Shown: one piece after another, positions 8,901-51,360 of the stretch
Position numbering within the stretch: position 1 is the first letter of the stretch
Layout of the letters: each line of letters starts with the position of its first letter
DNA from: Intoshia linei
Lineage: Eukaryota; Animalia; Orthonectida
DNA: 64,000 nucleotides
Direction of reading: 5' to 3'
Assembly (NCBI GenBank): GCA_001642005.1
Contig: LWCA01000059.1
Location: forward strand, 1,238-65,237
The notes under the pieces: generated by a model
Told to the model about the DNA's origin: nothing
Databases searched by the model: none
What the model saw: only the letters and a program-made list of their open reading frames with translations
Made by a program: the position numbers and the translations under genes

Positions 8901-9291
8901 GCACATTTTACACAAAATAAACTTTTTAAATTTCTGTGAAATTATGTATTTTTTTATCATTTCACATTACACATATCTATAGAAATGTGGGAACATTGTT
9001 GATTTAGAATCTAAATCAATAATCTAAATTTGAGATTAAGTATTGGCACGGTCGAAAGAAAAATAATAATAATTGTAATTCGAAATACAGTCCGACAGGA
9101 ACTATTTATAAATAAAGAGATAAACCGAGAATATAAATATGATTACATAATTCATTTATTCATTCAGGTCAATATTGTATTCACAGTAAATACCAATAAA
9201 GTTTATTTGAAATTATTTGATTTCTGTTTGTTGACTGATATAAAAAATATTAAAATAAAATATCTTAAAATTGTACAATTAATATTGAAAA

Positions 9292-19167: not shown

Positions 19168-19725
19168 ATGCGACCTCTTACGACAGAAGAATCTAAAGCA
19201 GTATTCAAGAAACTAGCAAAGTATATTGGTCCAAGGTGTAAAGAATTGATTGATAAATGTAGTGGCATCAATGGAACTACCGAATATTGTTTTAGGTATC
19301 ACCGCCAACGAATTTTTTATTCTTCTGCAATGTTAGCTAAGCGTGCTAGTAGTATAAAAGCAGATAATTTACTTAGTTTTGGAATATGTATAGGAAAATT
19401 CACAAAAACCCACCAATTTATATTAAAAATTACTTCACTGCATGTCATCGCACCACTATTTACAAATAGAATGTGGCTCAAACCAGCAGCAGAGCAACGA
19501 TTTTTGTATGGACGAAATATAGAAAAAACAGGTCTTGCTCGTATGACTGATACAACACAAAAATATGATGGTATATTAATGGTTTCGATGAACGAAGTTC
19601 CTCTAGGATTCGGATTAGCAGCCAAATCATCTACAGAATGCAGAAACACTGACCCTGGAACATGTATTGCGTTTCATCAAGCTGATGTTGGCGAGTTTAT
19701 TAGAAACGAAGACACATTGCTGTAA
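19168..19725 (+). CDS. NIP7: 60S ribosome biogenesis protein NIP7, single exon
   Basis: MRPLTTEE..VFKKLAKYIG, GKFTKT, EQRFLYG, FHQADVGEFIRNEDTL. Confidence 0.96.
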   Translation: MRPLTTEESKAVFKKLAKYIGPRCKELIDKCSGINGTTEYCFRYHRQRIFYSSAMLAKRASSIKADNLLSFGICIGKFTKTHQFILKITSLHVIAPLFTNRMWLKPAAEQRFLYGRNIEKTGLARMTDTTQKYDGILMVSMNEVPLGFGLAAKSSTECRNTDPGTCIAFHQADVGEFIRNEDTLL

Positions 19726-19731
19726 TATTTA

Positions 19732-22700: not shown

Positions 22701-23144
22701 TACATTTTGTTATTTTCAAAAAAATATCCAACTACATGTACTGAGTACATTGTATTCATAATATTGTCAATAAGGATTCCTCATCATTACTAATATATTA
22801 TTTCAACTGCATTTGATGTTGGAGTGTAATTTTAATAAATAATTTGTAGGTCTATAAAAATTATTTTGTTTATTTTGTATAAAAACGATCCTAGTACAAA
22901 GGATCTTAGGTCTTAGGATTTATGATCTTAGGTCATTATTAAATCTAAACATGTATATACCAAACTATAATTATAGATAATAACGATACTTATTAAAAAT
23001 ATTACCGCTGTTTTTTGTTTTCATTCCAATTGTACCGCCAGTATATATGACCAATATTGATTTAAAACACTCTTTAACGTTTAATAGTGAAAGTAATTTA
23101 TGAATATCGGTTATGCCATTGTTGGTATGCATTTTTGTTTTCAT
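19732..23144 (-). CDS. ASPG: L-asparaginase / 60-kDa lysophospholipase with C-terminal ankyrin repeats, copy 1
   Basis: [62 protein letters not shown]; all introns GT-AG and frame-consistent. Confidence 0.93.
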
Positions 23145-23199
23145 AATAGAATCAAATATTCACAAAAAATTTGATTTCATGTTCTAAAATTTTAACACA

Positions 23200-23256
23200 A
23201 AATGTTGAATTTATTTTAAATAAACACATACATTGTAGATATACAAATATTTTCCT
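23200..23256 (-). pseudogene. Degenerate copy of SPOUT1 last exon upstream of ASPG copy 1
   Basis: AAATGTTGAATTTATTTTAAATAAACACAT...GATATACAAATATTTTCCT aligns with 28203-28253 AAACGTTGAACTTATTTCTCAATAGACACATGGATATCCAAATTGCTTCCT. Confidence 0.6.
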
Positions 23257-23872
23257 TATGCAAATAAAATTTTTCAGTGACAATGACGTATTTATTATAC
23301 GAAAACTTAAAGGGATTTCAATTTACTTGTTCTGTAAATCAGGGATACCAACGACGCGATCGGGATGGGTTGGTCGATCGCCATAATTTAATTACTCTTT
23401 TAATGTTATTGCTTTTGAGTAGAAATAATTTTTGTGATACGAATTGATAAAAGTTGACACTTTTAATTATCATGTATTGTACAATGTACATAACGGGGTT
23501 AAAATTTAGCCGTTAAATCATCATCAGGAAAAGTATACAACTCAAAAATGACACCAGTAATTTGAATATTCCTGACATATTTTATACATCAAAAAATTAC
23601 TGTTAACTGGTTTTTTGAAAGGTTAAATTTCACCCTAGAATAAATTTTATTTTTTCATTTTGAAGGAAAAGTGGTTTTGCGCATTCGTCGTATATTTAAA
23701 CCAGTGACGATTCGAATCATCACTTATGAATTAATTGCATCTTTCGTCGATTTTTGCGGTCAAATGATCTACGTATAACAAATGTTGTTCCTAGAATATA
23801 TTGATTTGCATCAAACTTATACAAATTGTATAAGAAACTTTTGAAAAAACAAAAGAAATGTTTATGTGATTT

Positions 23873-26800
23873 TTATTGTAATAAAAGTAAACATTTTTTA
23901 CACTGATTAACAAGAATATTTTTTATTGTTTCATTTCGCTTGTTCTTTAGATTCAAATTTAATTTTCCCTTATAATGTTCAATTATATATTTTACTCCTT
24001 CGCATGCATGCATTTCTGCGGCCTATATAAAATATAATATTAAATTTATTATTACTTATAAAAAGATTCATTAAATGTGATGAATAATTACTGTATGTAA
24101 TGGTGTATTATCCATGTAATCTGTAGAATTGATGTCGGCGCCAGCTGTTACATAGCAATTAACTTTTTCGTAATGGCCTAATGATATTGCTCTAAAATTT
24201 TAAATATAATCCCTATATGTTCGGTCTATTTTTACCTTGTATTCGTATCTAATTTGAAAAGTATAATATTTAGCAAAAAAATACAAATATTTTCACTTAG
24301 CATATATAATATATGTATTAGGAGTGTGAACGAATTTTTATATCAAAAGTGCACCCTTCCACCATATGAACATTTTGAAAATATTCAATTTGCACCCAAT
24401 CTTACCTCTCAACTGTTAAAAAAAACCCTGGGGCATCGCCTCTAAAGTTTTGAACAATATATGACAATTTTCTTAAAAATATTATTTTAAATATAAAATT
24501 TTTTATACAAATAGCTATAAAGATGCCCAAAATTATCGTCTAAAAAATCATGAACGCCGAATTAATAAAAAAACCGATATTAATAAGAACTGAATAAATA
24601 TAAATTGAAAATTAATTGTTATGGAAATAATTATTACTATGAAATTTACTATACAAAAAAAATTAAATTTTGATTACTATTCATATTTTGAAGTGCTTTG
24701 CCCTAGGGTTTTTTTAATCTTTTTTATATAATTTATTGATAATTGTGTATCATTCAACCCCATCTTCCACGTATGGGGTGGCACTTTTGTATTTTCGCAA
24801 AAAAGTGAAAAAATTCACACCCCTAATATGTATGCTGTATTATATATAATACATACAGCAGCCATGTAAAACTTGCGGTCCACATCGACTTTGTATATGT
24901 ATATATACTATATTATTATTAAATATTCCAAAATTAATTGTGTATCATTATCAGACCTAAACTACGAGAAAATCACATTGACGAGATCAACGATATAATT
25001 AAAATTATGATAATTATCTCTTACTTCAAAATTAGTAAAAATACGTGCAAGTCATATCAAATTAAATTCTAGTTTTATCATTCTAATGTTAATTTAATAA
25101 AATCAATGGATACAAAAAAATAAATAATTAAATCATTGAGTATTACACACTGATCTCGATTCATATTATAATGACTTTCAAAGGTAATACTAGAAAAAAT
25201 TTTTAAAAAAATGGCCCGCTTCGTATTTCAGTTTGACATGGCTGACATACAGTGTAAGTGTATGTTATACACGTAGAAATATTAATCTATTAAGTATAAT
25301 ATCAGTGGTTCTTATATTAGTTTCAGTTATTGAACAGGGAAATGTAAATTACAGTATAGATATCAAAACTTTTAGATGCTTCACAAAAACACTATTAGCC
25401 CTAGAAATTGAATTTAAACATTATTTTCCTTTTCTTAATTAAATGAAATTTTATTAAACTTATATTTTTTTGAGTTGACGATATAGATATTAAAAAAACT
25501 ATTTTGATGATGAATGTTCGTTAGAATCAATAAGCTTTTATACAAAAATATATAAAGATTTTACTCCCGTGCAACGTGTAATACACAGTGTGTATATAAC
25601 TGGTTTTCTACCTCTTAGATATAAAAATATAGTAAATTACACATATTTAAAATCATAAAATTAACTCTACTAACTAAATTAGTGGAAAAGCTGAGAACCA
25701 CTGTTTAAAAACGTACTACTAAATTACTGGCAAATATTATATCCAACAAGATGCGGATTATTAAGGTAAGCCCCAGTTTTGATTAGAAGTTTTATAATTT
25801 CGAGATGAATAAATTGTACAGCATTATCCAGTGGTGTAAAACCAAATCTATCCTTCGCGTGAACAATGGCTCCCTTTGCCAACAAAAACCTAGTTATGCC
25901 AACATTTCCTTCAGAAGCTGAAATGTGTAAAGCCGTTCTTCCGTCATAGTCACTGCAATTAATTACACCGTCCTACATTTTATGAATACATTATATTGTA
26001 AGAATACATGTTGCAATATATTATTCAAAGCCGAAATATCATTGTTTCGAGTGGCAGAACAAACTAGATAAGGCATTATTGCATCACATAATTCATTAGA
26101 TGCCTGTTTATAAATAAATTTTGATTGGTAATATATAATTTTACAGCTCTTGTTTTTAAATTCATAGCTTCAGATATCTGTTCAATGAGGGAATTGTCGT
26201 ATAATGCACCATCTGTGGTCGTTTTTATGCATCTCATTTCTCCTCTCAAGTTTGATTCCATTAATTTACATTTATCAGAGTAACTTGCATTTTTACCTAA
26301 TACATAGCTCAACTTTGCCAATGTTGTTTCTACCGTCATATCACTACCAGAAACAACGCCAATATCATGAAATATCTGTTGTACCGTTGAAAATTTTTAT
26401 ATAAAATATACCTTTCCCGTTTCATATGCTGAGGAAACTGAACCTTTTGCACATTGACTTATATTAACAATTAAAACGCCTCTATTAATAGCTTTCTTTA
26501 ATATATCAATAAATTTAACATTTTCATAAGGACCATTTCCTGATCCATACGATTGTATTACGAATCCTTGAATAGGAGGTTGACAAAATGTTTCAATCTA
26601 TTCAGTTGGTCATGTAAATATATGATTACTATTTGATCGGGTATTCCAGGGTTAAGTCTAATTACACCCACATTTTCGGACATTTTGCAAAAAATATCGA
26701 AAGGTTCAGACACACCCGCAATTAATACTTGATTCCAGTTAACTAAATTTATATTAGAAATAAAAAATTATTAACCATTTATATTAATTCCGAAAGTGAC

Positions 26801-28147
26801 CAAAGGAACTTCGTTGTGAGAATCGAAAGCATTAAAACCTGCACTGTCATATTTAGTAGTTCTATTTCCTCTCAAAATTTTATTACTAAAAGCAATGAGC
26901 ACCTATAATTATATTGTATCCTATATAAATCTTTATATAAATTACTTCAGGTATGTAATAATATCCGGCTGTAACAAGGGCATCAATAAAATTATCGCGA
27001 CCGTCGCTTCGAAGTTCAAAAATTGGAACCTAAATGTCAGAGTGAAAAATAATTATATTGTTTACTTGCGATCCTGTCAAAATGACAGGTTTGCCTAAAT
27101 TTTCCAACATAAACGATAAGGCAGAAGCTGTATAAGCCATAGTATCTGTTCCATGTAGTATGACAAATCCGTCGAATTCTTTATAATAATTCTATCCAAA
27201 AAATAACCCAATTTATTACTTAAATTACTTTTATGTCATTTGCTATTTGTACCCAATTTGAAATACACATGTTAGCCGAGTCTAACAACGGATTGTATTC
27301 AATAACATCGTAAATAATTTTAAAATTGTCCTTTTTACCCCTAAATAAGTTTAAATTTAAATTTGATGTATTTACGGAAGAACAAGAGGAATTTCGTCCA
27401 ATTTAGGAAAGTGTTCATTAATATACTCGATATCGTTGAATAGAGTAGAATTGCATAGTTCACTTTTCAAAACATTTTTGGATGGAACATAAACTAAAAC
27501 ATTAGCGTTGAATAATTATATTCATTTTCAGGGGTAAAAAAAAGTTAATTATAAAAGACACAGGCATATTTCAATTTTTTTTAAATCAGAAAAACTCTAA
27601 ATAATTCAGATTTTATAATTATAAAATTTAATATAAGTTATTTTTTCTTAATCATCTAATACAGAGGTAGGGGAAGCATTTAATATTCGAAGACCGCACT
27701 AACGTCCCAAAAATTTAATAAGGCCGCACCTTTCTAAATAAAAATTAAATCAACTACTGCAGTGCTTCTCATGTGGGTGAATACGAAAATTTTAGATGAT
27801 TAAAGTGAATTATACATTTTTAGCATTTGTATTCAAATTAATGAAATTTTATGAGAAAAAACCAAAATTTTACCAATATTTTTTTTAAAATCCCATTTCA
27901 CCAAAAATTACTATAAAATATTTTAAATGAAAAATTGTTCAGAAGGCCGCACTTTTACCACTTCTGATCTAATATATATTAAATTATTTTTAAAATATAC
28001 CACTGATTACGCAATATTACCTCCATTTTTTGTTTTCATCCCAATTGTACCACCCGTGTATATGACCAATATCGACTTAAAACACTCATTGACAGTTAAC
28101 AAAGAAATCAATTTACCAATATCAGCAATATGATTTTTTTTATTCAT
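23873..28147 (-). CDS. ASPG: L-asparaginase / 60-kDa lysophospholipase, tandem copy 2
   Basis: Same exon structure and catalytic motifs (GGTIG, HGTDT, RGNRTTK) as copy 1. Confidence 0.93.
24319..24825. mobile_element. hAT MITE, family A copy 1 (ASPG2 intron)
   Basis: TIR TAGG(A/G)GTGTGAA; perfect 8-bp TSD ATATGTAT; closely similar inverted copy at 44504-45009. Confidence 0.9.
27662..27966. mobile_element. hAT MITE in ASPG2 intron 1; related partial inverted copy from ~59890
   Basis: CAGAGGTAG...CCACTTCTG ends, perfect 8-bp TSD ATCTAATA. Confidence 0.85.
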
Positions 28148-28200
28148 AATAAAATCAAATGGATTTAAATTTTATTTTATGTACAATAAGATGAATGACA

Positions 28201-30887: not shown

Positions 30888-32038
30888 TAATATCAAATTA
30901 AAGACTTCACGTGATTAAAATAAATAAAGTTACTATCTATTTAAGATTAGTCATTTTTGATATTCAATTTTACTATAAATTTTATACTAACGTAATTACT
31001 AATTAGTCGTATTGACTTTGGTTTAATTGACCCCACAAATACACAATATTAAATTTTCTAACCATTTTTTTTCGATCTTTTGGTTAATTGTACCGATATT
31101 CATGTAACCTTCGCTTAATGCAGCTAAATCAAATCTCTTCAAATTGGTAATTTATGAATTACCTTGAATTAGTGTGGTATAATTCTAGAATCCATTAACC
31201 ACACTTTGATGGTTAACTGTACTCAGTACAGTTAACCTTATATTATAGTACACTGTAATGTCAAAATTATCAAAATTTTTATTGAATATTCAAATATTAC
31301 ATTTAAAGTAGTGTTCAAAATGGTTCAAATTAAAATTGTACATTTATAAAATTAGCCAAATGAGTAATTCAACGTAAAAACGACAAATTTTTATAAAATT
31401 AGTAACTTTTTGAAAAGATAGAATAATACATATACCCGTTTACAACATTTGTAAATTAAGTAAAATTTTAAAAATCTATAATTATTATAAAATGTTGATA
31501 AACTTAATTTTTAAATTTTAAATCAAAATCAGTTATTCTAGCCTAGAACTTCGAACCTATCGTAACCGAGACCCCTTTTCACGGATTTGAACGAATTTTT
31601 TGTAAAATGGGGGCCATGTTTCCAAAGTGAGCATTAAAAAGATTATCTTTTTGAATATCATAACTATTTTGTGTTACATTTAAAATGTCAAGTTAAGAGC
31701 CTTAGAGAGGTCATACAATATGACACTATGCATCATTTTGTAAAAACATTTTTTAGGGGTAATTTTTCAATTTGAAGTGACTTCGATCTTGGTAGGTTCG
31801 GCTCTCGGGATAATTCAAATTTAATCATCAAAAAACTTATGATTATCGCACATAGTCAGTATTCAAAAATTTAAACTAAGTTTAAAACTAATGTTATATT
31901 CAATCTTTGTACTATGTAGTATATGATATTAACCATGTTAATAATAATAACTTGTTACATCTAAGTTGAAAATGATCAATAAATAACCACAAATAAAGAT
32001 ATGTTGACGAAAATTTGCTTAAAAACATTTCCAACATT

Positions 32039-34583
32039 ATGATTATATTTCAAATTTTGCTAATAGTAAAATATATTCACGGATACAACAAAAAATTGTC
32101 TGGCAATTTGCCAATAACTGAATATACAATACCATCTACTGCATATTACCCTTGCATAACTCGGAATGGAATTAAAATTTTTGGTTGCACATCTGATTAT
32201 GGGGGAAATTCAGGGATTGTAAACTTTCTTCTTCCAAGATCCGAATATACCTGGGAAGATGAATTCCACACAAATGTTATTAATAACAATGAAAATGTTG
32301 TTTATTTTATAAATGCTGACATGATCAATGAGTAATTTTTTTATAATAAAAATATTTATTAATTTTAGAAAAACTTTTAATTTTATATTTTTAAAACCCG
32401 ATAAAATTGCAGGGATTGTATTTTATGATGATACCGGAAAATATAATCATTGGAATGATACGCTATTTAGAAAATACATGTGTAATTTTTAAATTATACT
32501 GATTATTGTAAAAAATGTATAATTATGATAAATTTAGACGATTATTCAAAAATTCCCATAATCTATTTAAAAGATGTAACAACTTTGAAATTTATCAAGG
32601 AAGAGGTATACTAAAAATATAATGGATATCATTCCAATTTTATATTTCAGTGTTATGAAAAATATAATGCTAATGATAATATGGTTCGTAAATGTAAAGC
32701 CAACTTGCGGACAAGCATGACATCCCAAGCACCAGTAATGAAATGTTTGAATAGATCTGATGATAATTTCTCTTCCGCAATTTTTCAATCTCCCGGTATT
32801 TAACTATCAGTACACACACGGGGAAAGTGCTCCCGCGTTATGATTATTTAAGGGTTATATGACAGTGGGTTTAAGGTGGATAAAGTCCACTAGGAATATA
32901 TAAAATATCATGCCAGTGTGGAAACTTGATACAATTCATTTAAAAATAATTTAATATTTTTTGTCGTCATCAACTATAATATATTTATTCCCTAATTAAA
33001 ATATTTAGTTAGATGTAATTTATTGGGCGGAAAAAGCGTTCATTACATGACAGAATCAGATGAACCAATTTCATATCTGTTCCAAATACCTGTAAGTTCA
33101 TTTGACTGTATTTATGAAAAATAAAACATTTAATTGATTAGATTGATGGATTTTCAATGTTTGACGGATTTGCACCTAGTATTACCACTACAGTTGTCCC
33201 ACTTGCTCTATTTTTAAATTTTATGAATTCTTTAAACATGAAAGATTTAAAAAAAGAAATAATTTTCTCATTGTTTGGTGGAGTAATTACATTAAATATT
33301 AAAATTAATTCATTTAAACAGGAAACAATGAATTCGATTGGAAGTACTCGAATGAATTTAGACTTAAAAGATAAAACGTTTCCCAGAATGTTCAAAGTTT
33401 CTAAAACTGCTAAATACTACAATTTCAAATATTACAACATTCTATATGATTTTAATGCTACGCTTCAAGAGAATGTAATATTTAAATAAAAATGTGTATT
33501 CAGTATTAGTGTTTGAATTATTTTGACCAAATGGAACAGTACAAAACTGATTCAAAAGCAAAAAATACAGGACTCCTAGCATGTCATCAAAAGGAATTTG
33601 TAGAAAATGAGTAAACTAATTTTATTTTTTATTCCAGCATTTAGATTTCTATTCACGTCAATTTTTGATACCATTAAAAACTTTGAAAGGAATTGTAAAG
33701 TTAATAAAACTGATGTTAATGAGGCTATTGATAGTCATACCAAAAAAATTATTCAATTTATTTTTGGATATGAGAAAGTAAAACTATTTGACAGCAAAAG
33801 AAAATTTGACGTAATATAATTTAAATTGAGAGTTTATAATTTAGTAAATTATATTTAAAGTAAATTAAATTTACTAGCCAAACGAATTTATAAATTGTGT
33901 TGCTGTCAATTCCAATTGTACGTTATTTAATGCAGTCATTTCAGATCATGAAAAAATTCAATTAAGTAAAACCCTTATAAATTATATTACTAAAAAGAAT
34001 ATTATTTAATATTTTCTTGTATAAAATATTTAGGTGGTCCAATGGATTTATATGTTGGTATAAACGAAAATGAAAATATGTTCACATTCATGGTCAAGCG
34101 TTTAGTGGATTATATCACCGGAGAAAATGTACCCAATGTTAACATTACTGAATGCCACAACATGACTACCAAAGTATTTTAATACTGTATTTATCTTAAA
34201 TAATTTTAGAACTACACGTATATATGGATGAATGGATACAAAAAAGAAGGGTTATGTATAAAATCATCAGCATTTTATTCCAAAGCAATGTTAGAAAACG
34301 CCACAGATGATAAAGGTAGATTATGTTAAACATGTAACTAAAATATTCAGTGTACAGATATATAAATTCAAAACATTTAATGGCGGAAAGTAGTTGGAAT
34401 ACTGATAGTATACAATTTACCCTTTATATTGTACAGTCAAAAAATTATCAAGTAAATTGAAAATATTGTTATTATAATATATTTTAATTTTATTAGCGAA
34501 CAATTATTTCTGTTTCAATAGTATGGACAATTGTTGTTATTATAGGTTTGTGGTGGATATTTAAACATGTAACTTTGAAATAA
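32039..34583 (+). CDS. NCSTN: Nicastrin (gamma-secretase subunit), divergent and compact
   Basis: Signal peptide; YPC...FGCTSDYGGNSGIV; IDGFSMFDGFAPS; FSLFGG|ETMNSIGSTRM..DLKDKTFP; MAESSW; single C-terminal TM helix. Confidence 0.82.
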
Positions 34584-34602: not shown

Positions 34603-37600
34603 TTACATAAACGGTGGGGTACAGTCATGTTGAATTGTGAACCCGCTTTGTTGTATAATATAATGTGCTGCTTTGTTTCCAGTTATTATTCCTCTTTTAT
34701 AATCATTTTCATTTTTTATATAAACCGAAAGGAAGCCTATAAATTATTATAGTGAAATAAAAGCAAACCTCCAACAAAGGCATCACCAGCTCCGTTGGTA
34801 TCTACAATATTTTCTGGATTAATTTTTGTAATTTCAATTTTTTCAAATTTTACTGGCTCACAATCATCAAATTCTGCATAAAATACTGGATCAGAACCAC
34901 ACGTCATGATTAGCTTTAAAGAATGGTTATTGTATTGCGAAATTATTTTTTCTCCTAATAATTTTAGTAAATCTTTGGGTTTTCCTTCTATATTGTATAA
35001 TTTTGCCAAACTCAAAAATTCCTATAATTTAAAAATAAGAGTAACCTCTAAACCCGACACGTATAACCTAATTATAATTAAGTTATTATATTAATATTTG
35101 TTTCATCATAACAACTTTCATTCTACCCAAAATATTTTCCTATTTGTGTTTAAAAATTTATATATATGGCAGTCGTGGGGTAAAGGTTATACATGTCGCT
35201 GCGACATATCTGCAACATTGTCGCAATGTTGCGACTAAATGGTCATAAATAATATTTATTAAACAGATAATAAATAACCTGATCGTTTCCAATAATAATG
35301 TGAACATATTGCATCAATTTAACAATGTACGTGGATGCCAGATTACAAATAAATTCTGCTGATATATTGTAAACAATACGCTTGTTACCATCAAAAAGTT
35401 CCTTTGCCAATTTTATTATACATTGTGGCTTTAACATAAAGAAATAACCCTACATATAGTGTATAGAAATTTCTACAAAGATAACATTTAAAACCATGAA
35501 TAATTTATTATTTGTATTTTATGTAAATTATATTGCTCGCCGAAATATTATAATATAAATAAATTTAAATGGGGCCTCATATTTTCAAATTGATTATTTT
35601 ATAAATCATAGCATTTTCAAGTTGATAAAGTTGTGTACAGAATATATAATAAATGGTTTTTGTTAAAAAATTAACAATCGCCCCATTAAAAAATTTACAA
35701 TTATGGTAATTAAATTAAATCATAATTGCGTTTCAATTAATTCAGACTTCGTGGTCCTGTATAACTAAAAACTATTTATCTATGCAATTCGAAGAAAATA
35801 AAACTCCAGTTTATTTAAGAAAGTAAGAGGAATCGAGTTTTGAAAATTACATATTTCTATTACAGCTTTTCGAGAATATTGTTTTATTGCAAATTTCAGA
35901 AATTGAGTCCTTCAAAGTCAAAAACCCCAATTGTCCTTTTTTTAAATTCAAACCATTATAGAAATATAAAAAATACACAATCTCATAAAGATTTTAAATT
36001 CATAAACATTATGATAATTTCAAAATATTATATCTTCAGTTCAAAAACAAATTATCCTTTTTTGTAAAAATTAAAAGTCCTATAATTGTATACAACAGGG
36101 GTGGGGACCCTTTTGCGTGCAACGGGTCAAACCGCACATTTTATTTTATCACCTATCGCACCAAGAAAAATTCTTCAATTTTACTTCGTTCCATTTTTTA
36201 AAAATTTTTTTAATCAATATTACAAACCCTTATATCTATTTTCACTAGTTTAAGAATATTTTAAGGTTAATCGTCAATACATTTACTCTTTAAATGTATT
36301 TGAATGAAGTAAATTCTCATATTCGGCAAAATTTATAAAAATAATACTAAATCATTATGGTTTATTATTAATCAGTTAATTCACTTATACTTATGAATGA
36401 TTTTGCTTTTTTCTGACAATTGAATAAGACCTGGTTTAATGCTACTTGTGTATTAATTAAATTTAAACTATTTGAAATTTTTAATTTCACTCGCGTGTAG
36501 CAAAAATTTATAAAAGGGTCGCATGCGGCCCGCGGGCCATACTTAGCTCATATATGGTATACAACATAAATTCTGGGATATTTTTTAAAATCATAAGCAT
36601 TACATAAATCGCAACCTCAAAATAGTGCATTTTCACAATCAAAATCCCAGATTACCCTTTTTTTTAAAAATGAAAACAACCATAGAATTTAAAAGAAATA
36701 TACAGATGATACAGTAATTTACAGGTAACACAAATACAAAGTTTTAATTTGAACTAGTGACGCCTTCACGGTCAAAAAAGAACTTTAGTATTCATCTTTT
36801 TTATATAGAAACTATATTATTAAAACAAAAAATTTGAAATAATGAACGGTCTTACAATTAAAAAAAAAGATTATTCTTAAATGGCTTATCCAGTTGATGT
36901 AGATACAAAAATTTAAAACGTAAAACGTCAAAACGTAACTAATTTTGAAAAAACTTTAGTTGTATATTTTAAATTAATCATTAATTTAATGACAAGTTAT
37001 AGTATACAATGTTAATACATTAATGTTTGTATTTCCATATTACAGTAATAATCATCACACAGAGAATACTGCATTATTAGGTAAATCACAAAGTTATGTC
37101 GTTTTTATTGATGTAATTGATTAAAAACGCTATATCATCGATAAGATTTCACATATTTCCAAATATAAAATTTTTTTTTGTAACAATCATGTGTATGACC
37201 ACATCAGATGAGAACGTAATTTATTTAAATCTACATTTATTCAATGGTTATTTAGACGAAATATTTTAATGATTTTGAGGGACATTTACGTCATATTTTA
37301 CTGTATGAGTACTTTAAGGACCGCAGTGTAGTGGTATCTACCAAAAATATATGTGCTGTGTATGTTAAGGATGTTTTAAAAAACAGAAAATGTCAAATAT
37401 GGTTTAATAGATTTCGTGATGAAAACCACACCCTAATGGATTTCCAACGTTCCGGTAAATCAGTGGTTTTGTAAGATTTAATGAAGTAATAGATTTAATA
37501 AATGATTCCACTGCAAGTAATATTTTCTATCAAAAACCACTAAGTTCTTTTTGGTGTAATATGATTGATTTATATCCAAATGTATTTACGATTGCTTTGA

Positions 37601-40600
37601 GATTGCTACTATCTTTACTGTCAACTTATCTGCATGAAGCAGGATTTTATACGCTTTTTCATATAAAAACAATCAATAAACAGATTCAATGTTAAAAATG
37701 ATATGAGGCTCGCCTTATCGCATACACTGCAAAATATCAATAATTGTATCTAAAATGGAACCTGAAATTTCACATAAAGAAAATAAATTTAATTATTATA
37801 ATAATACATTGTACTGAGGTGCTCACTGAGCACAGTATAAAATATAAATAGAACTGAATATGATTTTTTAATATTTTCATTTATGTAAACTGATATGATG
37901 TTTAAAGTATATAGAAAATTTTTGTGTCGCGAAAATTTTTTATGTTTATAAGAGGGTCGCGAACACAAAAAAATTGAAAACCACTGCGGTAGACCTTCAA
38001 CTATTGATATTAATATAATAAAAATTGAATTGAAAAAATATCCAATTCAAACATGTCAATCGCTTTCCATTGTTGCCAGCTGTTCAAAAACCAGTGCCTA
38101 TAATTGGTTGAAACGTTACACAAAGTGAATAAGTCTGAAATATGAGTACCCCACTTATTAACGATTCAACATAAATTCAATATAAAAAACATGCCAATAA
38201 TTACTAGACAGACTAAAAAATGAACCGTTTTTAGAAAATATTGTGACTGGTGATAAAAAATGGATACATTGTGATAATACTAAATTGAAAAAACAATGGC
38301 TATCTTCCCAGGAATCACCGATATTGACTCCAAAACCAGAACTCCATGGTAAAAAGGTAATGATGAGTATTTGGTGGGATATGAAAGGCATACTTTATTA
38401 TGAATATCTTAAAAACATAAAAACCATTAATGCGGAAAACTATTGCGAATAATTGGATGAATTGACCGATGCAATTGACCGTAAAAGACCTCAAATTTTA
38501 TCTAAAGGTAATATTATTTTGTTACACGACAATGATAGACCTCATACTGCTATAAAGACTAGAAAACATTTAATGGACCTTAATTATAAGGTATTAGATC
38601 ACCCACCATATTCTCCAGGCATTGCTCCTTCTGACTATCACCTTTTTAGGTCAATGAGTAACCATTACCATGGAAAAAACGATTCAATTGAGCATTTAAA
38701 ATCTGACATTGATACCTTTTTGACAAATAAAAGCCAGAGTTTTTTTTAAAATGGAATTAAGAGGATACCGGAACATTGGAGAAGAATTGTCAAATGTAAT
38801 ATAGAATGTTTTGTAGAATAAATGTTAATCAAAATTGTTATTTTAAAAGTTTTAATTATACATTAAATTTAACTATGTAGTTATAAAAACGACATTACTT
38901 GGTGATTAACCTAATAGTAATAAATTAATACTACATTTTTGCCATTTCATTTATACATTATATTGCAAACGTAGTTATAATTTAAGTCTAATATATACAT
39001 TTATATATATTTAAATATTTATAAACGTAATTATAATTTAACTCTAATATATATTTAAATTAACCCATATACTCCCTGTGTGACCATATGATCACTTTTA
39101 TAAAAAACACGTATCAAATTGAAACAAAGTTAATTAAATATAAAAAATTAAATTAATTAGTATATTATATACCATTCGAGTATATTAGTTATGAGTTTTC
39201 ACCGATTAGCCTCCTGTGTCACTAACAGTGGGCCAAAATGATTTTTTGAAAAAATTTTTTATATTTTTTTGTTGTTAAAGTTGTGATAACTGAATTTAAT
39301 GAATACCATATGATGAATTCATGTATTGGCTACAATTTGATGAAATAATTAGGTATATTGACGATACGGTTTTATATATACATGCTTTTATTTGCCTTAT
39401 TCTCCCAATGTGAACATATGGAATGTGAAATAACTCCATAACTACAATTGGTAATTACCTAAAATTATATATGGTGAGCAATAGGCAAGTATGTATTAAC
39501 TTCCCAAATTTTTGGAAAAATCGAATCCAAAAAATTGGAAAAATTTGTCTGGGAGTATAAGGGTTAATGTAAACTATCTGAGTTTAAAAGGTTCGATATA
39601 TTTTTTTCATAAGAAAAATTTAAATATAAAAAATTGTAGTAGTCGTCTTAGGTTTCTTACAGCTGGTTTAGATCATAAGGTTTAAGAAAACATTGCATTC
39701 AAATCATAGATAAATATAAATATTTTAAAAAAATATTACCGTTATGTAAAATACGTTAGTATTTTTCAGATAATTTAAATTTTCAGGTGAAAGCATAAAT
39801 TCTTCAGATATGTCTTGAGTCGCACCAAGATTTGTGGCTAAAGACCTGCAATTCAAATAATAAAATGTATATACAAAACTTTCCTATATTTTCGGTCTTT
39901 TGAAATCATGGCGCAACAAATGCCTGTTGAATTCTTGTGTGATATTTCAAAATTTGTTTTCAAATGTGACTTACTACACTCGATTCGTAATTGTCTACCC
40001 TCTTCATCATTCCCAATGCAACTAGCATAAGCTATACAGTTTTTTTCGTTGATAATCCACTTTTATATTAATTTTAAAAATGTAGTGAATAACATTTTAT
40101 GTAACATTAAATATTAACGGGCGGACACATGGTATTTTAAATATTGATTGAGGGTGAGTCAAAATTGTAATGATTTAAAATTGATTTTATATTATTGTTG
40201 TTGGGAATCGTTCATATACCGATGAATTAGATGTGATATTGGTCATTAGTAATGACTCATTACGAATAATGTGGACATATTTACGGTTCAGTTAAACATA
40301 AAATTGTAATCATGGAGTAAAACGTTCGCCCGTTCGGAGCGGTGTATACCTGTAACATTCTTAAAACATTCAGACTAGAACCACCTAAATGTAAATATAA
40401 AAGTAAATGATAAGTTAACCTGGCACAATATCATATTCATACGTATCGATAAAATCTTTAAAGCTAATATTAATATTTAACGATATACATTGTATATTAT
40501 ACAATAATAATATATTAATAACATATATAATAGTAATGTATAATATTACAGATTTTTCTGTTTTTCGCCAACAATAATTAACCCATCCTTCTCCAAGCCA

Positions 40601-40802
40601 TATCTAGTTTTTTAGATTATAATACGTATTAGTTTTGCACCACGAACGATGACGAATTTTGAGATACATATTTTAGAAAAATTTTGTACATTTTGATAAT
40701 TTAATAATTAAATAATAAAAGTTACTTTTCTAAAAATGACTCATCTACAACAGCACTAATGTCAAGTAAGGCATTCCCAAACGCAAATAACTGATTTTTC
40801 AT
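34603..40802 (-). CDS. ADK: Adenosine kinase (PfkB family), copy 1
   Basis: FGNALLDISAVVD, PGGSSLN, CIGND, TGICC, RSLATNLGA, GNDQ|E, DTNGAGDAFVGG; ~4.3-kb TE-filled intron ~35451-39739. Confidence 0.9.
36096..36556. mobile_element. hAT MITE nested in an older repeat inside ADK1 intron
   Basis: Starts CAGGGGTGGGGACC, ends GCGGCCCGCGGGCC...; perfect TSD GTATACAA. Confidence 0.8.
37077..38914 (+). mobile_element. Full-length but dead mariner (DD34D) element
   Basis: TIRs TTAGGTAAATCACAAAGTTATGTCGTTTTTA / TAAAAACGACATTACTTGGTGATTAACCTAA with TA flanks; LRHILLYEY..WFNRFR..RSG|RPS, VTGDKKWI, HDNDRPH, YSPGIAPSDYHLF; internal stops and frameshifts. Confidence 0.93.
37461..37986 (+). mobile_element. 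Non-autonomous hAT (Buster/Charlie) element inserted in the mariner
   Basis: CAGTGGTTTT...AAAACCACTG ends; TSD CGGTAAAT/CGGTAGAC; encodes hATC remnant FWCNMIDLYP..ALRLLL..STYLHEAGF...DMRLALS...ISH*. Confidence 0.88.
39064..39563. mobile_element. piggyBac-type MITE
   Basis: TTAA|CCCATATACTCCC ... GGGAGTATAAGGG|TTAA. Confidence 0.85.
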
Positions 40803-41513
40803 GCTTTTTTGAAATTAAACGCTTAAAATAAATAAAAATTTATTTATACTACTAGGCAAATATGTTGCTATATTTTATTACGCTTTGAATTACGTTTGTA
40901 TTGTTTCAAATATCATGTAAATATCACTTTACGATTTTGTGGCATAAACTTTATGCTTGAAATAATCGTTAAATAAAGAATTGCAATTGCATTTGTATAA
41001 AATACTATTGTACCGTCTCGTTGGAAGAATTAAATTGTGTGCAAAACCATAGAACTTCCACTAAACAAAAATATTTAGATTTGAATGGTACAACTGTATT
41101 AGACAGACCTTTAAATTCTAGAGGTTTAGAGTCTAGAACAAGGGAGAAATGTGATCAAAAAAAAATTTTAAGAGAAGAGATATAATACTGTTTTTACTGT
41201 ATTCTAATTTGAAAATTAAAAAGTTATTTTGTTCTATCTTCTGTTAGATTTTGCGGTATAGAAAGAAGTTTTAGCATGCTGAAGAAAGTACTACAAAGTA
41301 AGTAAGCAAAGAAATTTTTTTATAGATCAGCGTACCAATAAAGTAAAGCGACTAAAAGTACATTTTTTTGGCAAAATCGAAAACGTACTAATTAACAAAT
41401 TATTTAATTAAAGTCATACACAAAAAATAAACTTTTGCTTCGCTAAGCCATGAATCATGAAATCTTATCCGATCGCAATGTTAACATTACATTTTACATT
41501 GTTAACATTTATT

Positions 41514-43931
41514 TTACAGAAACGGTGGGTTTATATCGTGTTCAATGTTAAAACCGCTTTGTTGGATAATGTAATTGGCTGCTTTGTTTCCTCGTAATAT
41601 TGCCTTTTTGTAATCATTTTCATTTTTTATATACACTGAAAGAAACCCTAATTTAATTTTAATATTTAAAAATGATATGTAAACCTCCAGCAAATGCATC
41701 TCCAGCACCATTAGTATCATTTATATCTGCATTGTCAATTTTTATTATATTTATTTTTTCACATTTTATAGATTCACATTCATCAACTTCGGCATAAATT
41801 ACAGGATCAGAACCACAAGTCATTATCAATTTCAGTGAATGATTAAAATATTCGTTTATTAGTTTTTTACCCAACGTTTTTAATAATATTTCATCTTTAA
41901 CTGATATATCGTACAATTTGGCCAAACTTTCAAATTCCTATAATATTATATTATATTATATATGTTAAGATTTATTATTTCAAAAATTGAAAAATTTTTG
42001 TTGATAACTAAGACAATTTTTGAATGTAATTTATGTTTTTCATTGAAATACTATTTATATTGTTAACGTACATTATAGTATATTTATTGTATGTATCAAT
42101 AAATTCATTCTTACAAGAGAATGAAAATAGTCCTATAATTATAAAAAACAAATTATGCAACAGTTTTCAAATCACTAACATAATCGTAAATCTTACCTCA
42201 AGTGACACTTTTTTTGAAAATGAAAAGGGTTATAGAATTTTTACAATATTATGCTTATTCGATAAATTTATGCGTAATTTTAATTATATTGTAATATAAA
42301 AATTTTTAGATCAATAAACCTGATCATTCCCAATTACAATATGAACGTATTTCATCAGTTTAATAATGTGTTTCGATGCCACATGACAAATAAATTCTGC
42401 TGATATGTTGTATATGACCCGTTTGTTACTTTCATAATATTCTTTTGCCAATTTTAAAATGCATTTAGGTCTCAACATAAATATATAACCCTAAATAAAA
42501 TGCATATATATTGTAGTAAATAAATATTGCTAATGTCGAACCTACCGTATTCTACAATACCCTCTTCAGGTGGGGTAGAATCGAAAAATTTAGGTCAAAT
42601 TGTAGGTTCTATACTGCTTAAATTAATTCATATTTTTCATAATTTACCTAACAAATTCGACAAACGAATCATAAAAACATCGAGTTGATTTACAAAAAAT
42701 AATATAATACCCAAATCTCTCAACTCTTTTAATATATCATCAGATATACTTCAATAAACAGGCTTAACGGATGTAGCTAAAATAACGATATACAAAATAT
42801 TAAAAACTAAAGGTAAAGTAGGGAATACTGAATCTAAAACACTTTCCCCTAAAAGACACAATAAATTACGGTTGATTAGGGTAAATAGTTATATGAAGAT
42901 AAATTTTGGTAATTTAATTATAATTATATACCGTAATGTAAAATATGTGCGAATCTCGTAAATGATTCATATTGATGGGTGAAACCATAAAATCTTCGGA
43001 TATGTGTTGAGTGGCACCTAGATCCGTTGCCAGTGATCTAAATTAAAATGTAAAAGTGTTAAATTCAACTTGCCTATATCTTCTGTCTTTTGAAATCATG
43101 ACACAACAAATACCTGTTTGGTGCTCTTTTGATATTTCAAAGTTTGTTATTAAATTCGATTTACTGCATTGGATGTTTAACTGCCTCCCCATTTCGTCAT
43201 CACCAATACAACTAGCATAAAATATAACATTTTCTTCGTTTATAATCCACTAAAAAATAAACATAATAAATAAACGACTAAATAAATAAAAATACGTAAG
43301 GAAAATGTGATTACTGAATTTTCAGATCGCCCTGGACTTTATTTTGTTGAATATACTGGAATCGTTTTTCTTCAGTTAAAATTGAAATTTATCATGTTTA
43401 CATTTTCAAAAACGGGGCCTGTATAATTTTTTGATATAAAAAAGTGCCCATAAGATGAAAAAGGTTGTCGATCCCTGGTGTAATATATAATATATTTCTA
43501 ATTTTAAAAATTTTAAAAAACCTGCATCATTCTGAAAACATTTAAAGATGATCCACCTACATGAATTACATATGAATACTTTACATTTAGTAATTACCTG
43601 GTACGACATCACATTTATAATTTCTTGAAAATTCAAGTATTCTAAATTTATTTATATTAAAACAAGTACAAGTATGTGCGAATAACGGAAGTTCCACAGT
43701 ATTTAATTAAAGGTAAAAGTAAATGTTAGGAAATATAAATTACAAATTTTTTGCTTTTTCATCTATGAGAATGATTCCATTTTTTTCCAAATTGTATCTA
43801 TAATATATATTGATATAATATCAAAAATTGATTATATTGTAGTACAAAAAATACTTTTGAAGGAAGGTTGTGTCGACAATAGCACTTTTATCGACTAAAG
43901 CATTTCCAAATGCAAATATTTTATTTTTCAT
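41514..43931 (-). CDS. ADK: Adenosine kinase, tandem copy 2 (one GC-AG intron 43038-43073)
   Basis: FGNALVDKSAIVD, PGGSSLN, RSLATDLGA, GNDQ|E, DTNGAGDAFAGG; same exon structure as copy 1. Confidence 0.9.
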
Positions 43932-46942: not shown

Positions 46943-49900
46943 TTATATACAAAATTTTTGTCTCTTTTTCCTAGATAAATTGAAGCAACATTGTTTCATA
47001 ATATAATTTGCACATTTATTTCCTACATGCAAAGCTGATTTATAATGATCTTCTTCGTTTATATAAACAGATAAAAATCCTTAATTACGTGATAAATGAT
47101 TAAAATTTAATTAAATCATACCACCCATGAATGCATCACCAGCGCCATTGGTATCCATAATATCATTGTTTTTTATTTTTATTGTATCAACGGAATCCAA
47201 AATTTTACACTTACTATCTTGGAATTCTCCATAAATTACGCTTTTTTCAGCCCTCGTCATTATAATCTTTAATTTATATTGGCAATTAAATATCAATTTT
47301 TCTCCTATAGCTTTCACTAAACAAATATCATCATTATTTTCTATTTCGTATATTTTAGCAAAAGACTCGAATTCCTAAAATAAAAGCATGAAACAATTAA
47401 TTTTAGTGTAAAAATACTTCTTTATTTCCAACCAAAACATTCACAAATTGCATTAATTTTTTTAATTCGTTTGGTACTTTCATTGATATAAAACATGCGG
47501 AAATGTTATATATGACACGCCTTCTTGATGTATAAAAGTTTCTTGCATATTTTGTTATAGATTCATGATGCATGTGGAAAAAATAGCCCTAAAATATTAA
47601 AATTATTACATTATCATTTTGAATTTACTGTTATGTAAAATATGTAACATTTGTCCATCAAAATAGAGTTTTGATTAGAAGACACAAAATTTTCGGTAGT
47701 GAAAAGATTTGCTCCCAGGTCGGTAGCTAAGGATCTATGCATTTATATATATTAAAAATAAATACAAACCTGGATGTGCTTTTATTCGATATCATTACAC
47801 AACAATTCCCTGTGTATATATTACTAATAACTTCAAAATATGCAACAATATTAGTTTTTTCACAATCTTTTATCAGCATTTTCCCGATTTTATCATTGCC
47901 TATCGAACTAGAAAAATATAATGTGTGAGGTTTCTGCAAAAGGAACTAAATTGAATTAAGCTATGTAGACTCTATATAATACATCAAGCATTCTTAAAAC
48001 GTTCAGAGCCGATCCACCTAATTTTATAGATGTTTAGTTTGATAATTATAAATTAATTCATGTCGTGTGCACTAGGGAGTGATATTCGATTATTAAGAGA
48101 AAAATGGGAATATATTCCGATTAATCGATTAATAACATTTACATTAAATTTATTATTTTTTATAAACAATTTTAATTATCACTAATGTTTGGTTGTGATT
48201 ATAATTTCATCATATTGCAGTGTTAGAGTTATAATGTTCTATCTGCATTTTTGTCAAAAATGAGGTTTTTGATGAAAAATGTTTTAAATCATATCTTTTA
48301 CATTTTTACCAAAAAAATTAAGCTTGAAAACGTATTATTTTATGATATAACGAACATTTACTGGTTCAATTACTAAATCTCGACTTGATAATTCCTTACA
48401 AAATTATCAAATTCCTATTAAAAATAACCTCACAGATTCTAAAAAGCAAGATATTAAAAGTATGTTAATTAAAATGGACAATGAGTAAAGAATTGTATAA
48501 TTTAATCATATAAATTGATAAAAATTTTGATGCTAAAAATGTTAAATGTTATCAGTTTTAATAGAATAATGTTCTATTTGCAATTTTTTCAAATCAAATA
48601 GTTACAGATTGTTCCATTAGTAAAATTAAAGTTTTGAAAAACCTTTATCTTTTTATTTTTATCGTACGAAACTTTTCAATATACTTTAACAAATATTAAA
48701 AAACTAAATTGTATAATTAAATTTTAACATAAAAATTATATTTTAGGCAATATAGTACTTTTAAACTTTAAAGTCGATTTATGAAAAACTATGTTTATGC
48801 AGATAGAACATTATAACTCTAACACTGCGATATATAAAGATAATATTACTCTATCTGAGATGTAAATATATGCGATCGCATCAAACCTAGAATGAACCCT
48901 ACTCTTTCCCACATTTGTGAATTTCTTAAAAATTAAAAATCAGTAGATTCGTCCAATTGTAAAATAAATTTTACTGGATTTTTTCCAAGTTCATCCATAC
49001 CTTGAATTTCGATAACTTCTGGAAAATATTTAATTCTTTTACAAAGGAATTGATTTAAATGTCTTTTTTTCATCATTTCCAAGTTCTGCAATTTTAAGAG
49101 TATAGGGTTTGATCAACGTTTGCGATGGTATGAGACTTTTTTTGTTTATTAATCATGTAAGCAACATGATATTATGCCTGTAAAATTATGTTACATGGTG
49201 AAGAAATGATAAATTTATCAACTGTTCCACCTATATCGAAACGTCTTCTTTTTCGAGAGATAACTTCAACACTGTCAATGATAATTGAGTGTTTTACATG
49301 CTTATTGTTACATAGGCGGCTTGGCTTCGTGCTATTATAGCATAAAACACCAAACATTAAATGCACAGACTCAAGTTTTTCGGATTCACCTGAAATTCGC
49401 CTGAAATATGTTTATAAAATGAAGACTCCGTTAATTATTGATAATTATTAGTATATTAAATTCAATGAGCGTTAATTATAATTAATTAGTTAATAATTAT
49501 TAACTTAATTTACACTTTGTTAATAAGTAATAACAATATGAAATTATATCTTATATATAATTTTTTTGTTGATAATAAAAATATTATGTAATTTGACTCA
49601 TTTAGAAACAAAATTAATAGATTAATTACCAATTAATTTTTAGCTAATTATTTTATTATTATTAAAATTTTTACTTTACATAAACAGTAAAGAATTATAT
49701 TATAATATAAATATCAATTAATCATAAAAAAATATTTATATGAAGTTTAACTTCCAGTTTATAAGAATAGTTTGAAATGTCTTATAGTTTTTTCGCGCAC
49801 TGTAAACGATCTCCACTAAAAAATATTTTACAAGTTTTAGGAACAAGAAGGATTTTGTTAAATTTTAAAAGGCTTTGTTAGGATAGTTTTAATTTTTTAA

Positions 49901-51360
49901 TTTAAAACATTTTTTCGATTAATCGATTAACCCTTAGACATTTTGATTGTTTTTTACATGATCTACACACCAGATAAATTTTCTCAAAATGTCAAAAATT
50001 AATTTTAAAATATTGTCAAACGTATGTATACATTGTATAACAATAGTAATACACAGAGCCGTCTTAAGCCACTTCGGGGCCTTTAAAATTTCGAGCGAAG
50101 CGATAAAAAAAATTAAGTCCCCTGTTTAGAAGACAGAGCATACTGTTGGTTGGAGACTTAGAGTTTTATTTTATTGAGTATTAGTAAAAGCATTAAAAGA
50201 TATTATGTGAATTTCTAGTAACTTTTATTTATTTTACAAAAACCTACTAACATTAATTAATAAACAAAGTTTACTTTTTCATTTGAAAATATGCACCATG
50301 CGTCACAAAAAACTCTTGATAATTCTTCACAAATGTTGTTTTCTCACTTTTTTCTGAGAGAAATCAAATATGATATTATCAAAACTGATATCATTCTCAA
50401 TTGACATTAAGGAGAGCGCATTCAAACGAGGTTGAGCTAAGCAATTTCGAAGTTCATTCTTAATTATTTTTAGTTTAGAAAAAGTTCAAACTTCAATAAA
50501 CTTCAAAACTTATAAACTGATTCTTAAGATATAAATGTGAAGTATTTTTTAATAAATTGGGGCCTCTTTTTAAGATATAAATGTAAGTACTTTTATTAAT
50601 TTGGGCCCTTTTTAATGAGGGACCCATATTGCCCATGCCTTAAAACGGATCTGGTAATACATTAATATACATAAACTTATTGAAAAACATAACATTTTTG
50701 TGTCGCATATACATTTATTTGCATTTTGAAGTCTAAGGATTAATCGGTTGCAAGTTAACCGGAATTATTCGAAAATAGTATTTTAATTTTTCAAATAATC
50801 GATACTCCCCAGTGGGCACTGCGTAATCTGATAAATACTATTTTAATTATTGTTTTTCAGCGTACAAATGTAATTATAATTTATAAAAAAAGTTGGTAAC
50901 TAAACTTTATACCTACCTTCGAATCTTTGACACCGGGAGTTGGTGATCATGAAAAATAAAAAATGTTCAATATATTTAAAAATACATACATGTATATCAA
51001 TTTCTATTTACAAGATAATGATATCATCACACAATTGTAAACAGAAACCGTTATAGATATTTAAAGATATCTAAAATTTTATACCACTAATAATTTTGCA
51101 ATCGTATGTGTTTATCAAGTCCTCGTATCTAATTCTATTTTAATATAATAATATATAATATAATAATAACAACACTATATTAAAAAAATACAAATATTTA
51201 TGAGCATCTCCTCGTAGAATCATGGAATTTGGATTTAGATCATATCTAGATAATTTTATATAAAAAAATTATACTGTTACTTTTCTAAAAATTCTTGATC
51301 TACATGAGCACTTACATCCATCAACGCATGTCCAAAAGAAAATATAGCTTTGTTCAACAT
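46943..51360 (-). CDS. ADK: Adenosine kinase, tandem copy 3 (most divergent)
   Basis: FSFGHALMDVSAHVD, GGSALN, SIGND, TGNCC, RSLATDLGA, GNKE|E, DTNGAGDAFMGG; ~3-kb intron ~48019-51083. Confidence 0.88.
48218..48827. mobile_element. Tc1/pogo-like MITE
   Basis: Perfect ~30-bp TIR CAGTGTTAGAGTTATAATGTTCTATCTGCA. Confidence 0.85.
48900..49400 (-). mobile_element. Buster/Charlie hAT transposase N-terminal remnant
   Basis: NSTKPSRL..KH, YHVAYMINKQKKSHTI..TLIKP, FILQLDESTD; paralogous to 60855-61115. Confidence 0.8.
49931..50739. mobile_element. piggyBac-type MITE
   Basis: TTAA|CCCTTAGAC ... GTCTAAGGA|TTAA. Confidence 0.7.
50054..50653. mobile_element. hAT (Tip100/ZMYM-like) non-autonomous element, family B copy 1
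   Basis: CAGAGCCGTCTTAAG...CTTAAAACGGATCTG, perfect TSD GTAATACA; minus strand FSKLKIIKNELRNCLAQPRLNALSLMSIEND. Confidence 0.9.

What the first reader, a model, noticed from the sequence alone, without database searches (positions are those of the whole stretch)
39846..39883. GT / GC / GA series of 5' splice sites at one homologous intron in three ADK paralogues
Seen: the phase-2 intron splitting the Arg of RSLAT is AG|GTTTGT (35 nt, 47735-47769) in ADK3, AG|GCAAGT (36 nt, 43038-43073) in ADK2 and AG|GAAAGT (38 nt) in ADK1. The GC and GA versions keep the flanking U1-pairing bases (AG at -2/-1, AAGT at +3..+6), and 38 nt is typical intron size here. The nearest GT (+5) shifts the frame; the next GT gives a 29-nt intron and a 3-aa insertion. 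The ADK1 frame is otherwise intact. Known: GA-AG introns are very rare. Inference: a natural snapshot of donor relaxation via GC in a tiny-intron spliceosome.
Basis: partly seen in the sequence, partly recalled or inferred. Interest (0 to 1): 0.78.

Follow-up and report, generated by a model that had tools for sequence, protein, structure and literature searches.

The report
Spliced GA-donor intron in worm kinase
One short intron of an adenosine kinase gene in the parasitic worm Intoshia linei starts with GA instead of the near-universal GT in the assembly, and assembled transcripts skip it exactly; it is a rare but known exception, likely tolerated because the rest of the splice signal is perfect, and perhaps helped by a predicted RNA hairpin around it.

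Summary
Confirmed. Three tandem adenosine kinase genes of Intoshia linei share eight intron positions. Intron 5 begins GT (ADK3), GC (ADK2) and GA (ADK1, 39883-39846, 38 nt). Spliced contigs from 3 of 4 runs laid skip exactly these 38 bases; no register of the joint is canonical, and the 29-nt GT alternative was not seen. Base 39882 itself is not independently confirmed, because the DNA run laid nothing. The GA and GC donors match the consensus at all six flanking places; 0 of 73 GT donors do. The intron splits a near-invariant arginine codon and has a GT donor in 4 distant eukaryotic loci, so GT is ancestral. The route through GC is plausible but not shown, and has a published precedent (Trema SYMRK). 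All 51 non-ADK donors are GT, so there is no sign of copepod-style general relaxation. New lead, found post hoc: a predicted 22-bp stem between the flanking exons encloses this intron, in ADK1 only, and is the most stable of 638 coding windows. The scan has noted isolated GA-AG introns in other genomes. Verdict: new member of a known kind.

The parts
39846..39883 (-). ADK1 intron 5, 38 nt, GA donor, AG acceptor (C at -3), phase 2
   Evidence: skipped exactly in contigs of 3 of 4 runs
39878..39885 (-). ADK1 donor: AG at -2/-1, GA at +1/+2, AAGT at +3..+6; the odd base is 39882
   Evidence: 6 of 6 flanking matches; base 39882 rests on the assembly alone
39884..40059 (-). ADK1 exon 5; ends in the first two bases of the Arg129 codon
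39740..39845 (-). ADK1 exon 6
39894..39917 (-). 5' arm of the predicted stem (in exon 5)
   Evidence: predicted
39819..39846 (-). 3' arm of the predicted stem (last intron base and start of exon 6)
   Evidence: predicted
39846..39874 (-). 29-nt GT-AG alternative used by the public model P0002 (3-residue insertion); not seen in the contigs
34603..40802 (-). ADK1 gene, 9 exons, 349 aa; publicly split into P0001 and the tail of P0002
   Evidence: contig loose ends join exon 2 and exon 7
43038..43073 (-). ADK2 intron 5, 36 nt, GC-AG
   Evidence: homology only, no RNA laid
41514..43931 (-). ADK2 gene, 9 exons, 349 aa
47735..47769 (-). ADK3 intron 5, 35 nt, GT-AG
   Evidence: the public model P0003 has the same junction
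46943..51360 (-). ADK3 gene, 9 exons, 353 aa

Best explanation
ADK1 intron 5 begins with GA in the assembly and is cut out at exactly that register in assembled transcripts; it is likely an ordinary major-spliceosome intron whose lost +2 base is paid for by a perfect match at the six flanking donor positions. Shown: the 38-nt joint in 3 runs, the open frame, the 6/6 context, the homologous GT and GC introns, and the near-invariant arginine codon that fixes G at -1. Inferred: ordinary GT donors in this animal work with little further U1 pairing, so a full-consensus donor has pairing to spare. U1, U5 and U6 would still place the cut before G+1, while the GTs at +5 and +10 have almost no predicted U1 pairing. 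Inferred history: ancient GT, then GC in the ancestor of ADK1 and ADK2 with the strong context locked in, then C to A in ADK1 (my odds about 0.6; independent origins 0.25; GA before GC 0.15).
For:: joint skipping 38 bases in X2, X3 and X4, with canonical introns 3 and 4 as controls; no other joint listed; no other letters; intron-4-containing contigs at depth 5.6 and 3.5 but none covering intron 5; no register canonical; GA-AG alone keeps the AG acceptor and the paralogues' position; 6/6 for GA and GC against 0 of 73 GT donors (independent-site expectation 0.006); modelled duplex with the complement of the textbook consensus is -5.3 kcal/mol (rank 21 of 75; GT median -1.8), against 0 and -0.5 for the +5 and +10 GTs. 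ADK1 and ADK2 are 69% identical, dS about 1.6, with intron interiors no more alike than shuffles (7 of 7 pairs tested), yet both keep AAGT. Arg in 116 of 117 homologues; ADK1 keeps 41 of 50 conserved columns (ADK2 40, ADK3 37); same phase-2 intron with GT in 4 of 36 loci examined. Papers: GA donors carry obligate upstream AG and A at +3 (PMC5714493, whole text; PMC7072748, passages); GC donors adhere more closely to consensus (PMC2490688, passages); a GC-to-GA change is functional and about 95% spliced in Trema (PMC10668435, passages and Discussion).
Against: Base 39882 is seen only in the assembly; the spliced contigs cannot show it and come from samples other than the best DNA holder. The 6/6 context argues against an error at a random GT site but not against a true C, as in ADK2. 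The three runs are one study, their kind is not on record (RNA is inferred from the joints), one is labelled organism B, and contigs drop rare variants, so splicing efficiency is unknown. The GA and GC donors are homologous and not independent: for GA alone, AAGT against 2 of 73 gives p = 0.04. Identity at +3..+6 between paralogues also occurs in 3 of 12 asparaginase intron pairs. The Intoshia U1 sequence was not seen (no genome; no Rfam match in the window).
Confidence: 0.8

Rival explanations
1. Base 39882 is an assembly error or a private allele; the animals whose RNA was seen carry GC (or GT) and splice normally.
For: No read or contig laid covers the base. The sister gene has GC in the same context. 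P0002 carries the same base but derives from the same assembly.
Against: No other letters over the covered exons and all of intron 4. Consensus errors in short-read assemblies are rare (general knowledge). The site has the known GA-donor signature (PMC5714493), and a functional GC-to-GA change has a precedent (PMC10668435).
Confidence: 0.1
2. Splicing at GA needs more than the strong donor: the stem between exon 5 and exon 6 holds the ends together or hides competing sites. This adds to the best explanation and does not exclude it.
For: 22 predicted pairs (20 Watson-Crick, 2 G-U) with probabilities 0.75-1.0 in a 320-nt context. First of 75 donor windows, of 638 coding windows and of 51 junction windows; 3 of 5000 synonymous shuffles reach it; ADK2 438 of 500 and ADK3 414 of 500. 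All 5 ADK1-derived changes in the span improve a pair, and the stem buries an upstream GT and GC.
Against: Found post hoc. The z-score depends on window size (0.0, -1.2, -3.7, -2.4, -1.6). No two-sided compensatory change; 44 of 61 positions are paired, so derived changes fall there easily; the stem was defined on ADK1. It also buries the acceptor G, leaves a GC competitor at 39923 free, and the donor is itself partly paired in the model. DNA-level quasi-palindrome correction could perfect such arms with no function (recalled mechanism). Trema's GA worked after a single base change.
Confidence: 0.2
3. Intoshia has a spliceosome with generally relaxed +2 recognition, as in Eurytemora and Oikopleura.
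For: Two non-GT donors among 75; very weak GT donors. Public models fail at both non-GT sites, so annotation-based counts would hide them.
Against: 0 of 51 non-ADK donors are non-GT; at a 10% rate that has probability about 0.005 (my arithmetic). Caveat: my gene finder penalised non-GT donors, and uncertain introns and several genes were left out.
Confidence: 0.07
4. The intron is retained (ADK1 is a dying copy), and the joint is a reverse-transcriptase template switch across the hairpin at the 3-letter repeat.
For: A stable hairpin and a 3-letter direct repeat exist. Template switching is a named source of false GA-AG calls (PMC7072748, passages).
Against: The skipped form is the only one assembled, at depth 76-148; it falls exactly on an intron shared with two paralogues and distant eukaryotes and restores the frame; dN 0.20 against dS 1.59. 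The skip lies inside the loop, not across the stem base.
Confidence: 0.02

Closest known systems
Trema orientalis SYMRK intron 12 GA-AG (PMC10668435; passages and Discussion read)
   Same: Constitutive GA-AG intron in an intact gene; GC and GT at the same intron in relatives; efficient splicing; GC proposed as the stepping stone.
   Different: There the three states lie in orthologues of different plants, with population and transgenic proof. Here they lie in three tandem paralogues of one animal genome, the intron is 38 nt, and the genomic base is unconfirmed.
GA/GG donors of Eurytemora affinis and Oikopleura dioica (PMC5714493 whole text; PMC7072748 passages)
   Same: Obligate AG before the intron, A at +3, constitutive use, broken automated gene models.
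   Different: About 10-12% of introns and, in the copepod, recently gained. Here 1 of 75 donors, and an old intron position with GT in the outgroups.
Human FGFR1-3 and ITPR1 GA-AG introns (through passages of PMC4176328, PMC6280755 and PMC5714493; the Brackenridge paper was not held)
   Same: U2-type GA donor; mis-annotated to a nearby GT (ITPR1).
   Different: FGFR use is alternative and needs a GT 6 nt upstream, which is absent here.
U2-type GC-AG introns with compensating consensus (PMC2490688 passages)
   Same: ADK2 intron 5 is a plain example; a strong context is proposed there to allow neutral fixation.
   Different: ADK1 goes one step further, to a purine at +2.

Membership tests
U2-type GA-AG intron | Removed precisely in mature RNA | tested here: met
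   38-base joint in contigs of 3 of 4 runs
U2-type GA-AG intron | No canonical register fits the joint | tested here: met
   Four registers, none GT-AG, GC-AG or AT-AC
U2-type GA-AG intron | GA present in the genome of the animals sampled | tested here: inconclusive
   Assembly only; DNA run X1 laid nothing, and no contig covers the intron
U2-type GA-AG intron | AG at -2/-1, A at +3, U1-like consensus, AG acceptor | tested here: met
U2-type GA-AG intron | Lariat formed by the major spliceosome | not testable with these tools
   Needs lariat sequencing; U1 is not in the window
Eurytemora/Oikopleura-type genome-wide GA donors | Several percent of all introns GA or GG | tested here: not met
   0 of 51 non-ADK donors in the window; small sample, finder biased to GT
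Eurytemora/Oikopleura-type genome-wide GA donors | Recently gained, lineage-specific intron position | tested here: not met
   Same codon and phase in 4 of 36 distant loci
FGFR-type GA donor | Helper GT 6 nt upstream | tested here: not met
   Nearest upstream GT is 34 nt away (sequence)
U12-type intron | U12 donor consensus (ATCC at +3..+6, recalled) | tested here: not met
   +3..+6 read AAGT
Adenosine kinase (PfkB family) | PfkB domain and conserved catalytic motifs | tested here: met
   PF00294 on exons; PDB adenosine kinases E about 1e-40 for P0002; 41 of 50 conserved columns

The most novel reading that the evidence does not exclude
The flanking exons of ADK1 evolved a 22-bp stem that clamps the whole GA intron in its loop and makes the non-canonical donor usable: coding sequence serving as a cis-acting splicing aid that arose with the step from GC to GA, with the GT and GC paralogues next door as natural controls.
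Probability: 0.2. Interest if true: 0.7.

Novelty: new member of a known kind. Interest (0 to 1): 0.45.

Why it matters
How GA donors are recognised is an open question in the papers read. This locus holds GT, GC and GA versions of one old intron side by side in the same nucleus, so trans-acting factors are held constant and cis swaps (base +2, the +3..+6 context, the exon stem) can be tested directly. It also corrects the public annotation: ADK1 is split and fused to ADK2, and both non-GT introns are mis-spliced in the models, one at a likely catalytic arginine loop. If the stem proves functional, it would be an exon-encoded structural aid for a non-canonical donor; my one search for that idea (listing only, plus passages of one review) found no such case.

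Tried and rejected
Whole genome: none held, so no genome-wide count and no U1. Run search: no RNA holder listed on record. DNA run X1 laid 0 contigs, which is no evidence either way, and the lack of cover inside intron 5 does not prove the absence of retention. Only ADK1 exons 3-6 were laid; ADK2 and ADK3 junctions were not. ADK1 as a truncated pseudogene: rejected, exons 7-9 lie beyond a 4.3-kb intron and contigs join them. The 29-nt GT intron: not seen, and shorter than the shortest intron I accepted in these genes (32 nt). The +5 GT: shifts the frame; its products could be lost to decay and stay invisible. A-to-I editing: cannot turn GA into GT or GC (general knowledge), and no other letters were seen. 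IRE1-type splicing: no matching loop motifs by eye (motif recalled). The gene finder was unreliable across long introns and itself chose the 29-nt GT in ADK1; donors were curated by paralogue alignment and by eye. The search of protein representatives was busy three times. Exon 6 alone found no PDB match. A search for the human ADK exon borders found nothing. The genome paper and the FGFR paper were not held. No report of GA-AG in Intoshia appeared in the listings; PMC7072748 has no 'Intoshia' in its text or in the one supplementary file held; files not held may list it.

Full report
Observation. The window is from the orthonectid Intoshia linei, by the source names of its proteins. On the - strand lie three adenosine kinase genes with 9 exons each, the same 8 intron positions and open frames of 349, 349 and 353 residues. 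Intron 5 is phase 2 inside the Arg codon of RSLAT and begins GA in ADK1 (39883-39846, 38 nt), GC in ADK2 (36 nt) and GT in ADK3 (35 nt); the other 21 introns are GT-AG. Most short introns modelled here are 32-43 nt. The paper PMC6543705 (passages) gives a median of 57 nt with most introns above 30. Near the site, only the GA intron and a 29-nt GT intron keep a near-full-length frame. The public model takes the 29-nt one and also mis-splices the ADK2 GC intron.

RNA evidence. Six runs hold the region, none on record as RNA. Four were laid on 39730-40465. X2, X3 and X4 (one study, three samples, X2 labelled organism B) each give one contig that skips exactly 38 bases here, at depth 148, 76 and 102. 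They also skip introns 3 and 4 and run on into exons 2 and 7, so they behave as spliced RNA. No other joint and no differing letter was listed. The joint has 3 letters of slack; its registers read AA-GG, GA-AG, GG-CA and AG-GC, so none is canonical and only GA-AG matches the paralogues. The DNA run X1 laid nothing and no contig covers intron 5, so base 39882 rests on the assembly. Contigs cannot give splicing efficiency.

Compensation. I curated 75 donors from 8 other-and-ADK gene models in the window: 24 ADK, 24 in an asparaginase pair, 5, 5 and 9 in three single genes, and 8 of low confidence. Uncertain introns and several genes were left out, and the finder penalised non-GT donors. 73 are GT. 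At the six flanking consensus places they match 3.0 on average and none matches 6; both non-GT donors match 6. The two are homologous, so the joint p of 0.0004 overstates the case; GA alone gives p = 0.04 for AAGT against 2 of 73, and the independent-site expectation for 6/6 is 0.006. A duplex model with the complement of the textbook consensus (an assumption, as the Intoshia U1 was not seen) gives -5.3 kcal/mol for the GA site against a GT median of -1.8, and 0 and -0.5 for the GTs at +5 and +10. All 51 non-ADK donors are GT, which argues against copepod-like rates.

History. The split Arg is kept in 116 of 117 homologues (117 of 121 proteins held; the three Intoshia models and one long protein were dropped), and ADK1 and ADK2 are sisters with support 0.979. 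The likely equivalent residue in maize ADK holds the gamma-phosphate, and its Ala variant keeps 24% activity (PMC12369479, passages); the equivalence is inferred from motif position and was not aligned directly. An Arg codon cut after its second base always gives G at -1, which would favour tolerance at +2 (inference). Of 80 metagenome loci, 36 were examined and 4 carry a phase-2 intron in this codon, all with GT, so the position is old and GT ancestral. ADK1 and ADK2 have dS about 1.6 and unalignable intron interiors but the same +3..+6. This fits long constraint from a non-GT ancestor, although 3 of 12 asparaginase pairs are also identical there. Three two-step histories remain; I favour GT to GC to GA at about 0.6.

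A predicted stem. Folding the region gave -27.6 kcal/mol, z -3.2, with 1 of 200 shuffles as stable. The end of exon 5 pairs with the last intron base and the start of exon 6 in 22 pairs that enclose the intron. It ranks first of 75 donor windows, of 638 coding windows over 10,194 nt and of 51 junction windows; 3 of 5000 synonymous shuffles reach it; ADK2 and ADK3 are unremarkable. All five ADK1-derived changes in the span improve a pair. Against a function: it was found post hoc, depends on window size, shows no two-sided covariation, buries the acceptor G and leaves one GC competitor free; DNA quasi-palindrome correction (recalled) could produce it. I give it 0.2.

Comparison. The closest case is Trema SYMRK intron 12, where a GC donor became GA, is about 95% spliced and complements a mutant, and where the GC route was already proposed (PMC10668435). 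Eurytemora and Oikopleura have the same donor signature at about 10-12% of introns (PMC5714493, PMC7072748). Human has 14 GA donors among 222,263 introns, as quoted in PMC5714493. In reporter assays GA ranks below GC, TT and AT (PMC6280755, passages). The FGFR helper GT is absent here. PMC13326754, PMC4176328, PMC2490688, PMC10639083, PMC13149111 and the TOGA2 preprint were seen as passages only. Searches listed no report for Intoshia, but its genome paper was not held. This scan has unchecked notes of isolated GA-AG introns in other genomes and none for this genome.

Verdict. A real, spliced, non-canonical junction, most likely a true GA-AG major-class intron (0.8), with an assembly error or allele as the main rival (0.1). 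It is a new member of a known kind. Its value lies in the in-genome GT/GC/GA series and the testable exon stem. Interest 0.45.

Noticed in passing
window 34603-43931: The public models are wrong at both non-GT introns: P0002 fuses ADK2 (frame-shifted at its GC intron) to the 5' half of ADK1 (29-nt GT intron); P0001 is the ADK1 3' half alone. P0003 differs from my ADK3 model at exon 4.
   Followed up: yes
window 37256-38749: Broken Mos1/mariner-type transposase pieces (PF17906, PF01359) on the + strand inside ADK1 intron 6.
   Followed up: no
window 19700-28150: Tandem pair of asparaginase-ankyrin genes with 12 matched intron positions, all GT.
   Followed up: partly
window about 32000-34500 (+): Convergent gene ending near the ADK1 stop; nicastrin-like by eye only, no Pfam support. 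ADK1 contigs of 2.7-2.9 kb run about 1.8 kb beyond the remaining coding sequence, perhaps through overlapping 3' ends.
   Followed up: partly
window-wide, 73 GT donors: Very weak donors: G at +5 in 7 of 73, G at -1 in 42%, mean 3.0 of 6 consensus matches.
   Followed up: partly
window 9289-11241: Uninterrupted 650-codon HEAT-repeat frame (PP2A scaffold-like) in an intron-rich region.
   Followed up: no
window 40060-40062 and about 6050: Two acceptors with A at -3: ADK1 intron 4, confirmed by contigs, and one in the decarboxylase gene, read by eye.
   Followed up: partly
L028, L029, L032, L074: Unnamed eukaryotic loci with a phase-2 GT intron in the same Arg codon; the L029 acceptor is atypical; L030 appears to start inside such an intron.
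   Followed up: partly
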